DNA of 6,064 bases from Escherichia coli (lineage in GTDB: Bacteria > Pseudomonadota > Gammaproteobacteria > Enterobacterales > Enterobacteriaceae). A program made the position numbers. Positions within the stretch are counted from its first letter, which is position 1. Each line of letters begins with the position of its first letter. This document shows positions 3,001 to 6,000 of the stretch, piece after piece. Location: the NCBI RefSeq assembly GCF_003334385.1, contig NZ_QOWN01000078.1. One strand, 5' to 3'.

Positions 3001-6000
3001 AAAAGAGCTGTTCGGCGGGGCAATTAAACGCCCGTGAGAGTCTGAAATAACCGCAAGCCGGAGATCAGCATCGGTCACCACAGCAGCCACTGCTTTGGCG
3101 GTACCAGTTTGTACACTTGCTTCCGGCTGGTACCGCTATTTTTACAAAACAGAGAAGAGCATCACCGGACGACGGGCTCATAACCCAATCCACCCGGGCG
3201 GCTGCCACCGCAGGTGTTCTTCTCTGTTTTGTGGAGAAACCAACCGACCTTGCAGGGTCGATATGATGAGGAGCAGCAAAATGGCTAGCGAACGCAGTAC
3301 TGATGTGCAGGCATTTATCGGGGAGCTGGACGGCGGCGTATTTGAAACCAAAATCGGCGCAGTTCTCAGTGAAGTCGCTTCCGGTGTGATGAACACGAAA
3401 ACCAAAGGTAAGGTCTCGCTCAACCTGGAAATCGAACCGTTTGATGAGAACCGTGTGAAAATAAAACACAAACTCTCATATGTTCGCCCGACTAACCGCG
3501 GGAAAATTTCTGAAGAAGACACCACCGAAACGCCGATGTATGTCAATCGCGGTGGTCGCCTGACTATTCTACAGGAAGACCAGGGACAATTACTGACTCT
3601 TGCCGGTGAACCTGACGGAAAACTCCGCGCAGCAGGTCATTAATATCGTTCTTAATTAACTGATTATTTATCTCATCACTGAATATCTTAATATAGTGAG
3701 GACTTATTATGTCTCAGAACTTAGACGCAACCGCAATTAATCAAATCCATGCCCTTATTTCTGCTCAGGGTGTTAATGAAATTATCAGTAAGATTGGTGC
3801 CGATGCTGTGGCATTGCCTGAGAATTACCGCATTCATGATCTGGAAAAATTTAATTTAAATCGTTTCCGTTTCCGTGGTGCGCTTTCCACTGCCAGCATC
3901 GATGACTTTACCCGTTATTCTAAAGATCTTGCAGATGAAGGCACCCGCTGCTTTATCGATGCTGATAATATGCGTGCCGTCAGTGTGCTTAACCTGGGTA
4001 CTATTGATGAACCAGGTCACGCAGATAACACCGCCACTCTCAAACTGAAAAAGACAGCACCGTTCTCTGCCCTGTTGTCTGTTAACGGCGAGCGTAACTC
4101 CCAGAAATCACTGGCAGAATGGATTGAAGACTGGGCCGACTACCTTGTGGGCTTTGATGCTAATGGTGACGCCATTCAGGCAACAAAAGCGGCTGCGGCA
4201 ATTCGTAAAATCACGATTGAAGCAAACCAGACCGCTGATTTTGAAGATAATGACTTCAGCGGCAAACGCTCCCTGATGGAATCTGTCGAAGCGAAGACCA
4301 AAGACATTATGCCAGTGGCATTTGAATTTAAATGCGTTCCGTTTGAAGGTCTGAAAGAACGTCCGTTTAAATTACGCCTCAGCATTATCACTGGCGATCG
4401 TCCTGTACTGGTTCTGCGCATTATTCAGCTGGAAGCAGTGCAGGAAGAAATGGCTAACGAATTTCGTGATCTGCTTGTTGAGAAATTCAAGGACAGCAAA
4501 GTAGAAACCTTTATTGGTACTTTCACCGCCTGATTTCATTACTGCAAATGCCCCTGCGGGGGCATTTATGGAAACGTAATTGACTCAATAATCGCCGGAT
4601 GGTGAGGGCTTCCTTTTACCAGAATTCAGCGCGGTGCAGCGCATATACGTGGAGAACAAAATGTCATTTATTAAAACTTTTTCCGGGAAGCATTTTTATT
4701 ATGACAAGATAAATAAAGATGACATCGTTATTAACGATATCGCGGTTTCCCTTTCAAATATCTGTCGCTTTGCCGGTCATCTTTCTCACTTCTACAGCGT
4801 CGCCCAACATGCGGTGCTTTGCAGCCAGCTGGTGCCGCAGGAATTTGCTTTTGAAGCGTTAATGCATGATGCAACAGAAGCGTATTGCCAGGACATCCCA
4901 GCTCCACTGAAACGCCTTCTTCCTGACTATAAACGGATGGAAGAAAAAATAGACGCCGTAATCCGTGAGAAATACGGGTTACCTCCTGTTATGAGCACGC
5001 CAGTGAAATATGCCGATCTCATTATGCTGGCAACCGAACGTCGCGATCTCGGGCTTGATGATGGCTCTTTCTGGCCTGTACTGGAAGGTATCCCGGCGAC
5101 AGAGATGTTCAAAGTTATTCCACTGTCACCAGGCCATGCCTACGGGATGTTTATGGAACGTTTTAACGAGTTATCGGAGTTACGCAAATGCGCATGAATG
5201 TTTTCGAAATGGAAGGGTTTCTTCGCGGGAAATGTGTACCACGAGATCTGAAAGTGAATGAAACAAATGCTGAGTACCTGGTACGTAAATTCGATGCGCT
5301 TGAAGCTAAATGTGCGGCACTGGAAAACAAAATAATACCAGTGTCAGCTGAACTGCCGCCAGCAAATGAAAGTGTTCTGTTATTTGATGCTAACGGAGAA
5401 GGCTGGCTAATTGGCTGGCGTTCTCTCTGGTACACCTGGGGACAAAAAGAAACCGGAGAATGGCTGTGGACATTTCAGGTCGGGGACCTTGAAAACGTCA
5501 ATATCACTCACTGGGCAGTAATGCCGAAAGCACCGAAGAATAAAAAATGAGCGTGATAAAAACTCATACAGGAATTGTTATCACCCGAGACGGTCCGCAG
5601 GTAAAAAAACTGCACCAGACAAAGCGGATGTGGGTCGTCGGAAAAAACGAGTTTTACCACAAAGAAACCGGACGCCGCCACTTTGCAGAAAATACTCGCC
5701 GCCGACTGCTGATCGATACCATCAAGCCTATCGAGGTGAAGCATGTTTAAACAGAACGAAAAATCTATCGCTCAAATTGCTGAGTATATCCCGCGTGCGT
5801 GCCGGGATATGCAGTTGCAGGAAGCCAAAGCACGCCTGGAGAAAAAAATTGCGCTCTATATCGATGACGGCTGTGATGCCGCCGTTCTTAACGCGGCGTT
5901 CGCGCCAGCTCTTAACAGTCATACGCGAAAGTCTTTTTTTTCGTGCATCACAGCGCAGATCCGTAAAGGAGGCAACCAGTGAGCAACATTAACTATCAGG

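What the first reader, a model, noticed from the sequence alone, without database searches (positions are those of the whole stretch)
5188..5982. Unbroken chain of overlapping stop/start junctions indicating translational coupling across at least five genes
The yfdR/yfdS junction overlaps by 10 nt (5188-5197), yfdS and the 67-aa ORF by ATGA (5547-5550), the 67-aa and 79-aa ORFs by 8 nt (5743-5750), and the 79-aa ORF and the next gene by GTGA (5979-5982). Together with the cro/ymfL 8-nt overlap (1508-1515) and the ymfL/next-gene ATGA (964-967), this supports the gene calls and suggests co-regulated, stoichiometric expression.
Basis: seen in the sequence. Interest (0 to 1): 0.3.

Follow-up and report, generated by a model that had tools for sequence, protein, structure and literature searches.

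The report
Overlapping gene junctions in a prophage operon
Four consecutive genes in the early operon of a lambda-like E. coli prophage really do overlap stop-to-start, but this is the ordinary, long-known way such phages pack their genes, and it does not show that the proteins are made in fixed ratios.

Summary
All six overlaps are in the sequence at the stated coordinates: 10, 4, 8 and 4 nt on the + strand, 8 and 4 nt on the - strand. The four + strand gene calls hold. In-frame stops lie 2-8 codons upstream of each start. Three of the four called starts have the best Shine-Dalgarno (SD) match among candidates; orf67 has none. Variable sites pile up at third codon positions, and PGAP, phage mEp460 and K-12 CPS-53 annotations agree.

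The pattern is not unusual. In mEp460, 22 of 52 same-strand gene pairs overlap, and a near-identical prophage has nine overlaps in a row on the other operon. Lambda's nin region was described as a "chain of interlinked genes" in 1982.

Coupling by termination-reinitiation is plausible, most so for orf67, which lacks an SD. It is untested. The strong embedded SDs at orf79 and the ea22-like gene could also allow independent initiation. "Stoichiometric expression" has no support: yfdS is swapped for an unrelated gene at the same junctions.

The junctions coincide with mosaic breakpoints. The orf79/ea22 junction is a portable 20-nt cassette found with many unrelated flanking genes.

The sixth junction (ymfL/next gene) starts an ORF that is a doubtful composite call.

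Verdict: already known, low interest.

The parts
4661..5197 (+). yfdR (5'-deoxynucleotidase, 178 aa), first gene of the overlapping chain
   Evidence: PGAP name. phrog_318 at 4e-110. Variable sites by codon position [28,16,84].
5188..5197 (+). Junction J1: ATGCGCATGA, a 10-nt overlap (or 4 nt if ATG 5194 is the start). SD GGAG lies at 5176-5179.
   Evidence: The same ATG and a 10-nt overlap (ATGTGCATAA) are kept when yfdS is replaced by another gene. Homology breakpoint at 5195 in 17 HSPs.
5188..5550 (+). yfdS (120 aa)
   Evidence: phrog_583 over positions 1-119 of 120. Weak DUF551 match. K-12 yfdS has the same geometry.
5547..5550 (+). Junction J2: ATGA. No SD in this allele (GAAG), whereas most relatives have GGAG.
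   Evidence: Homology restarts at 5557 in 24 HSPs.
5547..5750 (+). orf67 (67 aa, function unknown)
   Evidence: phrog_1226 over positions 1-67 of 67. Variable sites by codon position [9,8,28]. No Pfam match.
5743..5750 (+). Junction J3: ATGTTTAA, an 8-nt overlap. SD GAGGTG lies at 5734-5739.
   Evidence: (SD duplex -10.2 kcal/mol).
5743..5982 (+). orf79 (79 aa, function unknown), ending in the shared tail ..IRKGGNQ
   Evidence: phrog_1344 over positions 1-79 of 79. Variable sites by codon position [14,8,21]. Tail shared with unrelated proteins.
5965..5984 (+). Junction J4 cassette AAAGGAGGCAACCAGTGAGC: SD AAGGAGG, a 6-nt spacer, then the GTGA overlap (5979-5982)
   Evidence: SD duplex -11.6 kcal/mol. 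At least 119 exact copies in viral contigs, with at least 16 upstream and 22 downstream sequence clusters in 63 combinations. Breakpoints at 5983-5987.
5979..6064 (+). 5' end of an ead/Ea22-like gene, which runs off the window
   Evidence: PGAP name. phrog_6389, phrog_250 and phrog_368 N-terminal matches. Lambda ea22 starts with the same GTGAGCGAAATTAAC.
1508..1515 (-). cro/ymfL junction GTGGGTAA, an 8-nt overlap, with SD AGGAGGT upstream
   Evidence: (SD duplex -11.7 kcal/mol).
964..967 (-). ymfL stop overlapping an ATG (ATGA). Conserved in e14 (ymfL/ymfM), SfV and mEp460, but the downstream ORF is a doubtful composite.
639..818 (-). DUF4222 gene (59 aa), in a different frame from the ORF that starts at 967. 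This is the real coding frame in this stretch.
   Evidence: Third-position bias [7,6,29] and [4,3,15] in this frame. Pfam DUF4222 at 1e-13. NCBI-named homologues.
419..620 (-). isrK-like and C4-like RNA genes with the a1b1 target element, lying inside the annotated 'Rha family' CDS
   Evidence: Rfam C4 at 81.4 bits and isrK at 62.2 bits, both above gathering score.

Best explanation
These are genuine, tightly packed gene junctions in the early-left (PL-type) operon of a lambdoid prophage of the mEp460 / SfV / CPS-53 kind.

Each downstream start codon sits 4-10 nt upstream of the end of the preceding stop codon. Its Shine-Dalgarno (SD) sequence, where present, is written into the last codons of the upstream gene.

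The likely working: a ribosome that terminates at the upstream stop re-initiates at the adjacent start (termination-reinitiation), or it unfolds the site for a fresh 30S subunit. This keeps the long polycistronic mRNA continuously translated.

Coupling should be strictest at yfdS->orf67, which has ATGA and no SD in this allele. It should be weakest at orf67->orf79 and orf79->ea22, whose very strong embedded SDs should also permit independent initiation.

The same junctions are the seams at which genes are exchanged between phages. The overlap geometry therefore travels with short conserved junction sequences rather than with particular gene pairs. It does not imply fixed protein ratios.

Shown here: the geometry, its conservation, the coding status of the four genes, the SD strengths and the mosaic seams. 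Inferred: that translation is actually coupled.
For: - Coordinates and overlaps were read from the sequence. Three independent annotations make identical calls.
- Starts are bracketed by in-frame stops 2-8 codons upstream, and the called starts have the best SD (joint-best for yfdS), except orf67, which has none.
- There is a third-codon-position excess of variable sites in all four ORFs.
- The ATG/stop cores are almost invariant among relatives. A TGA->TAA change at J1 keeps the overlap. Exceptions are ATG->ATA at J3 in 4 HSPs and a 1-nt deletion just downstream of J1 in 2 HSPs.
- SD duplex energies (kcal/mol) are -6.1, -1.0, -10.2 and -11.6 on the + strand, and -11.7 and -6.4 on the - strand. 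Three are in the top ~1% of NTG sites in the window.
- Published rules: spacings of -4, -1 and -8 are the enriched ones, and coupling is most efficient from -4 to +3. In E. coli, 4 of 5 native -4 pairs were coupled in reporter assays.
- In a homologous phage module (Gifsy-1 orf45/anrP), an AUGA overlap was shown by experiment to couple translation.
- Mosaic seams lie at 5195, 5557 and 5983-5987. yfdS is swapped for a PAPS-reductase-like gene with both junction geometries kept.
- The J4 cassette is shared by unrelated flanking genes.
Against: - No expression data were available, so coupling is inferred from geometry alone.
- The energy needed to open each start region does not differ between overlapped starts (6.8-9.9 kcal/mol on the + strand; 8.0 and 10.4 on the - strand) and non-overlapped starts (1.9-11.2 kcal/mol). 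The RNA-unfolding version therefore has no specific support.
- Strong SDs at three junctions could make initiation independent.
- Coupling efficiency is reported to fall as overlap grows beyond -4. This weakens the case for the -10 junction unless ATG 5194 is the start used.
- bioBF shows that an ATGA overlap can be uncoupled.
Confidence: 0.8

Rival explanations
1. The overlaps are mainly a by-product of genome compaction and of recombination at conserved junction cassettes. Each downstream gene is translated from its own embedded SD, largely independently of the upstream gene, so the overlaps carry little regulatory meaning.
For: - SDs are very strong at orf79, ea22 and ymfL.
- The J4 cassette occurs at least 119 times, with 63 different combinations of flanking sequence.
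- Unrelated upstream proteins all end in ..QLRKGGNQ.
- Breakpoints sit on the junctions.
- In E. coli, bioBF is uncoupled and about 40% of menDH initiation is de novo, despite ATGA overlaps.
- Overlaps are the base rate in this phage type: 22 of 52 pairs.
Against: - orf67 has no SD in this allele yet keeps a conserved ATGA.
- Most native -4 pairs tested in E. coli are coupled.
- This rival and coupling are not mutually exclusive.
Confidence: 0.35
2. The overlaps are artefacts of calling the longest ORF. The real starts lie downstream and the genes do not overlap.
For: All four starts are the first start codon of their ORF. For yfdS a second ATG (5194) and a third (5209) exist. For the ORF at 967 this rival is probably right in spirit: there is no coding signature in 967-858.
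Against: - In-frame stops lie 2-8 codons upstream, and the alternative starts further downstream (beyond ATG 5194, which would still overlap) have poor SDs.
- PHROG profiles align from residue 1.
- The GTG at orf67 codon 3 is not conserved: it is ATC in the variant allele.
- The same ATG serves a different downstream gene at J1.
Confidence: 0.04
3. The proteins form a complex, and the overlaps enforce stoichiometric, co-translational assembly.
For: In cellular genomes, short overlaps are enriched among subunits of heteromeric complexes (abstract). orf67 and orf79 always co-occur in the loci sampled. That sample is biased towards near-identical relatives.
Against: - yfdS is replaced by an unrelated gene at the same junctions.
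- K-12 has yfdR and yfdS without orf67 or orf79.
- The ea22-like partner varies freely.
- SD strengths differ by more than 10 kcal/mol between junctions, which predicts unequal initiation.
- No domain links the proteins to one another.
Confidence: 0.08

Closest known systems
[quoted passage not shown]
   Same: A run of small accessory genes in a lambdoid early operon, joined by overlapping stop/start codons of the ATGA type.
   Different: A different operon (PR/nin rather than PL/exo-xis side) and different genes. Lambda's own PL operon also shows overlaps of -4, -4, -20 and -28.
Translational coupling by termination-reinitiation at -4/-1/-8 overlaps (Huber et al. 2019, PMC6728339; Huber et al. 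2023, PMC10666635; Brown & Wade 2025, PMC12548453)
   Same: Spacings of -4 (two junctions) and -8 (one) on the + strand, with an SD embedded in the upstream gene whose contribution varies.
   Different: One junction is -10, which lies outside the enriched classes. Dependence on upstream translation, the defining functional test, has not been done for these genes.
Gifsy-1 isrK-orf45-anrP module (Hershko-Shalev et al. 2016, PMC4825925)
   Same: Homologous isrK-like and C4-like RNAs lie upstream of a Rha/antirepressor gene in this window. In Gifsy-1 the orf45 stop overlaps the anrP start (AUGA), and coupling was shown by experiment.
   Different: Here the orf45-like frame (ATG 502) has no stop and runs in frame into the Rha ATG at 364. 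This is the fused form the paper mentions for S. dysenteriae.
Mosaic module boundaries of lambdoid phages: Susskind-Botstein linker idea; Juhala et al. 2000; Clark et al. 2001 (all from my own knowledge, none read here)
   Same: Homology breakpoints fall at gene boundaries. Short conserved sequences at the boundaries are shared by otherwise unrelated neighbours.
   Different: I did not find a paper in the library that describes this particular ..RKGGNQ / AAAGGAGGCAACCAGTGAGC cassette. The Ea22 literature notes a conserved '+GE' tail of unknown significance.

Membership tests
Translationally coupled overlapping gene pair (termination-reinitiation) | Co-directional genes on one transcript | tested here: inconclusive
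   All genes are on the same strand, downstream of operator-like sites at 2614 and 2638. The pattern scan lists only one promoter-like and three weak terminator-like matches in 4600-6064, with window totals near the shuffle expectation. No transcript data were available.
Translationally coupled overlapping gene pair (termination-reinitiation) | Stop/start spacing within about -8 to +6 nt | tested here: met
   Spacings are -4, -8 and -4 at J2-J4. J1 is -10, or -4 if ATG 5194 is the start used.
Translationally coupled overlapping gene pair (termination-reinitiation) | Downstream translation depends on ribosomes reaching the upstream stop | not testable with these tools
   This needs premature-stop reporter constructs with mRNA quantification, as.
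Lambdoid mosaic junction (boundary/linker sequence) | Homology between related phages breaks at the gene junction | tested here: met
   HSP ends fall at 5195 (17) and 5983-5987 (29), and HSP starts at 5557 (24), among 160 loci.
Lambdoid mosaic junction (boundary/linker sequence) | The same short junction sequence is flanked by unrelated genes | tested here: met
   J4: at least 16 upstream and 22 downstream clusters in 63 combinations, with unrelated proteins sharing the tail RKGGNQ. J1 and J2: yfdS is replaced by a PAPS-reductase-like gene at the same start and stop positions.
ead/Ea22-like family (gene starting at 5979) | N-terminal sequence match to the family | tested here: met
   phrog_6389, phrog_250 and phrog_368 match residues 1-28. 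PGAP names the full-length homologue. Lambda ea22 begins VSEIN.. from the same GTGAGC. Only 28 codons lie in the window.
Gifsy-1 type isrK-orf45-anrP module | isrK and C4-like RNA upstream of an antirepressor gene | tested here: met
   Rfam isrK scores 62.2 bits (gathering score 50) and C4 scores 81.4 bits (gathering score 45), at 531-607 and 419-506 on the - strand. The Rha domain begins at ATG 364.
Gifsy-1 type isrK-orf45-anrP module | orf45 stop codon overlaps the antirepressor start (AUGA) | tested here: not met
   There is no stop in that frame between 502 and 364 in any of six homologues. The ORF is fused in frame to Rha.

The most novel reading that the evidence does not exclude
The junctions are portable cassettes, best seen at 5965-5984 (CGT AAA GGA GGC AAC CAG TGA GC). 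They act as recombination seams for swapping accessory genes while keeping each newcomer correctly placed for translation.

Because the SD and the overlapped stop are read as codons, the cassette forces a common C-terminal tail (..RKGGNQ) on unrelated proteins. This would also explain the conserved '+GE' tail of Ea22 proteins, which the literature calls of unknown significance: AAA GGA G.. is an SD.
Probability: 0.5. Interest if true: 0.3.

Novelty: already known. Interest (0 to 1): 0.12.

Why it matters
It matters little beyond good annotation. The overlaps confirm four small gene calls in a widespread prophage module that is also present in E. coli K-12 CPS-53. They also mark where accessory genes are exchanged between phages.

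Three by-products are more useful.
- One annotated 382-aa 'Rha family' protein is a read-through of a leader ORF, a DUF4222 gene in another frame, and two regulatory RNA genes.
- The same frame question touches the published e14 cell-division inhibitor ymfM.
- A conserved protein tail in the Ea22 family is probably just a ribosome-binding site read as codons.

Tried and rejected
1. Longest-ORF artefact. Rejected for the four + strand junctions.

2. RNA-unfolding coupling. Opening energies of the start regions do not separate overlapped from non-overlapped starts, so there is no support either way.

3. Programmed -1 frameshift on the A-run at 5542-5547, which would fuse YfdS to orf67. Rejected, because most relatives interrupt the run (AATAAGAAATGA).

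4. Rfam scan for RNA elements at the junctions. Nothing reaches gathering score in 4600-6064; the only listed match there is a weak STnc310 hit (E = 0.99, 22.3 bits against a gathering score of 40) at 4698-4739. The only matches above gathering score are C4 and isrK at 419-607.

5. Promoter and terminator scan. One promoter-like and three weak terminator-like matches fall inside 4600-6064, none convincing.

6. Pfam and NCBIfam for clues that the products interact. yfdS gave only a weak DUF551 match; orf67 and orf79 gave nothing.

7. The lambda ribosome-profiling paper (PMC3718152) is not held in the library. No measured synthesis rates for comparable overlap chains could be cited.

8. The related loci from IMG/VR were nearly all above 90% identical. 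Deep conservation of the orf67/orf79 pair could therefore not be assessed.
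Full report
**What the window is.** The 6064 bases are the immunity and early region of a lambdoid E. coli prophage.
- They are 97% identical over their full length to a prophage in strain 2015C-3121.
- They are 95-97% identical to phages mEp460, 1720a-02 and several Stx2 phages.
- The - strand carries cro (1508-1768), a CII-like ymfL (964-1515) and a Rha/antirepressor region (1-967).
- The + strand carries the cI-type repressor (1866-2558) and a ~720-nt gene-free leader. After these come yfdP, yfdQ, yfdR, yfdS, a 67-aa ORF, a 79-aa ORF and the start of an ead/Ea22-like gene.
- Exact operator-like TTGC-N7-GCAA sites lie between cro and cI (1831) and just after the cI terminator (2614, 2638).
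- The + strand chain is therefore the early-left (PL-type) operon, and the cro side is the PR-type operon. This assignment is an inference.

**The observation.**
- J1 is ATGCGCATGA at 5188-5197.
- J2 is ATGA at 5547-5550.
- J3 is ATGTTTAA at 5743-5750.
- J4 is GTGA at 5979-5982.
- On the - strand there are GTGGGTAA at 1515-1508 and ATGA at 967-964.
- PGAP on the near-identical prophage makes the same calls. So do the RefSeq record of mEp460 and, for yfdR/yfdS, E. coli K-12 CPS-53.
J1 contains a second in-frame ATG at 5194, which would make it an ATGA overlap. The GGAG at 5176-5179 is 8 nt from 5188 and 14 nt from 5194. Where yfdS is replaced by another gene, only the 5188-equivalent ATG exists (ATGTGCATAA).

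**Are the gene calls sound?** For the four + strand genes, yes.
- An in-frame stop lies 2-8 codons upstream of each called start, so the starts cannot move upstream. Each called start has the best (yfdS: joint-best) SD match among its candidates, except orf67, which has none.
- Among about 60-70 distinct homologous sequences, variable sites are concentrated at third codon positions: yfdR [28,16,84], yfdS [14,6,21], orf67 [9,8,28], orf79 [14,8,21].
- yfdS, orf67 and orf79 each match a PHROG family from residue 1 to the end.
- The start and stop cores are almost invariant among relatives.

**Is it more than chance?** It is real, but not unusual.
- In mEp460, 22 of 52 same-strand neighbours overlap (-4: 10, -1: 5, -8: 3, -10: 1), and 12 of 23 in the early region.
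- In the near-identical prophage, the PR-side operon has nine consecutive overlaps. The + strand chain continues beyond the window with spacings of +1, +4 and -4.
- Lambda's own PL operon has -4, -4, -20 and -28.
- In the E. coli chromosome, 24% of unidirectional pairs lie within -8 to +6.
- A run of four is what such an operon normally looks like. Lambda's nin region was called a "chain of interlinked genes" in 1982 (reference confirmed).

**Mechanism.** The literature read here sets out the following.
- Spacings of -4, -1 and -8 are the enriched ones.
- Coupling is most efficient from -4 to +3 and falls faster with longer overlaps than with gaps.
- Four of five native E. coli -4 pairs were coupled in reporter assays. 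bioBF was uncoupled, and about 40% of menDH initiation was de novo.

SD duplex energies in the window are as follows.

| Start | SD duplex energy (kcal/mol) |
|---|---|
| yfdS | -6.1 |
| orf67 | -1.0 |
| orf79 | -10.2 |
| ea22-like | -11.6 |
| ymfL | -11.7 |
| ATG 967 | -6.4 |

- Three of these are in the top ~1% of all 604 NTG triplets in the window.
- I therefore expect strict termination-reinitiation at yfdS->orf67. This allele has GAAG where most relatives have GGAG.
- I expect mixed coupled and independent initiation at orf79 and ea22.
- The energy to open each start region does not distinguish overlapped starts from others. The RNA-unfolding model gets no specific support.
- All of this is inference from geometry. 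No expression data were available.

**Stoichiometry.** I found nothing to support it.
- The products are unrelated accessory proteins.
- In 17 loci yfdS is replaced by a ~285-aa PAPS-reductase-like gene. That gene starts at the same ATG with the same 10-nt overlap and ends in an ATGA with orf67.
- K-12 has yfdR-yfdS-yfdT without orf67 or orf79.
- orf67 and orf79 did co-occur in every sampled locus, but that sample is biased towards near-identical relatives.

**What the junctions also are.** Homology between the window and 160 related viral contigs breaks at the junctions. HSP ends fall at 5195 (17) and 5983-5987 (29), and HSP starts at 5557 (24).
It has at least 16 different upstream and 22 different downstream 240-nt sequence clusters, in 63 combinations.
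- In nearly all of these copies a frame is open up to the TGA. Quite unrelated upstream proteins end in the same tail..QLRKGGNQ.
- J4 is therefore a portable cassette made of the upstream gene's last codons, the downstream gene's SD and the overlapped stop/start.
- Lambda's ea22 begins with the same GTGAGC. It ends in AAA GGA GAG TGA, followed by only a 5-codon vestigial ORF.
- The Ea22 literature reports that all Ea22 proteins end in a basic residue followed by Gly and Glu, "significance unknown". The simplest reading is that this tail is an SD read as codons. This is my inference and is not tested beyond lambda.

**The sixth junction.** The ATGA at 964-967 is conserved; e14 ymfL/ymfM, SfV orf36/orf37 and mEp460 all have it. 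The gene called from it is doubtful.
- PGAP extends it to a 382-aa "Rha family" protein. That frame runs through Rfam isrK and C4 antisense RNA genes, both above gathering score.
- Differences from diverged homologues by codon position are shown below.

| Segment | Differences by codon position | Reading |
|---|---|---|
| 967-858 | [6,8,8] | No coding bias |
| 818-642 | [7,6,29] and [4,3,15], in a different frame | Clear third-position bias in that frame |
| 638-508 | No bias | Non-coding pattern |
| 364-1 | [18,13,44], in the Rha frame | Clear third-position bias |

- The other frame in 818-642 encodes a 59-aa DUF4222 protein.
- The long frame nevertheless has no stop in six homologues, even where they are only ~65-85% identical.
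- For 502-364 this fits the Gifsy-1 orf45, a translated leader of the antirepressor gene that is coupled to it by AUGA. Here it is fused in frame instead.
- For 967-502 the open frame remains unexplained.

**Verdict.** The phenomenon is already known and ordinary for lambdoid phages.

Noticed in passing
window 419-620 (- strand), within 1-967: Rfam C4 antisense RNA (81 bits), isrK (62 bits) and the c4-a1b1 element lie inside the CDS that PGAP and mEp460 annotate as one 382-383-aa Rha/transcriptional regulator. Codon-position tests show that only 364-1 is coding in that frame. The long ORF looks like a read-through of several separate elements.
   Followed up: yes
window 639-818 (- strand); K-12 e14 locus L167 3823-4180: A 59-aa DUF4222 gene is the conserved coding frame here. 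In K-12 e14 the annotated ymfM (a published SOS-inducible cell-division inhibitor) lies in the other frame and overlaps a conserved DUF4222 ORF. That ORF has its own TTG start and AAGGAG SD. The parts of the ymfM paper I read describe cloning the ORF as DNA, without frame-specific mutants, so which product causes filamentation looks open.
   Followed up: partly
window 365-967 (- strand): The frame from ATG 967 has no stop codon in any of six homologues, despite 65-85% identity and a 3-nt indel near 412. The other two frames carry 1-4 stops each. The orf45-like leader explains 502-364. The rest is unexplained.
   Followed up: partly
window 2670-3280 (+ strand): The ~600-nt leader between the OL/PL-like operators and yfdP folds far better than shuffles (z = -5.19). 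It holds a 25-nt inverted repeat (3144-3168 / 3208-3232) just upstream of the yfdP ribosome-binding site. ORFs in the gap match no PHROG family, and no N-like protein is evident. It could be a processing or antitermination element.
   Followed up: partly
window 1831-1845, 2614-2628, 2638-2652: Three exact TTGC-N7-GCAA palindromes sit in the cro-cI intergenic region and just after the cI terminator hairpin (2579-2596). They are likely OR and OL operators.
   Followed up: partly
window 5965-5984; lambda locus L288 (ea22 3' end): Unrelated proteins upstream of Ea22-like genes share the tail ..RKGGNQ, encoded by the SD-GTGA cassette. Lambda ea22 ends AAAGGAGAGTGA (..KGE), followed by a 5-codon vestigial ORF. 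This probably explains the '+GE' C-terminal motif reported as of unknown significance (PMC7093339).
   Followed up: partly
window 4546-4567: A perfect 9-bp hairpin (AAATGCCCC-TGCG-GGGGCATTT) without a T-run lies in the 127-nt gap between yfdQ and yfdR. It may be a weak terminator or an mRNA-stabilising structure at the head of the overlapping chain.
   Followed up: no
window 5188-5335 (yfdS N-terminal ~49 aa): The N-terminal third of YfdS also matches two other PHROG families (phrog_614, phrog_14548), whose members have different C-terminal parts. This suggests a mosaic seam inside the gene as well as at its ends.
   Followed up: no
window 3065-3469 (- strand): A 134-aa ORF antisense to yfdP matches phrog_3651 at 1e-83. 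This is probably a family built from wrong-strand gene calls over yfdP.
   Followed up: no
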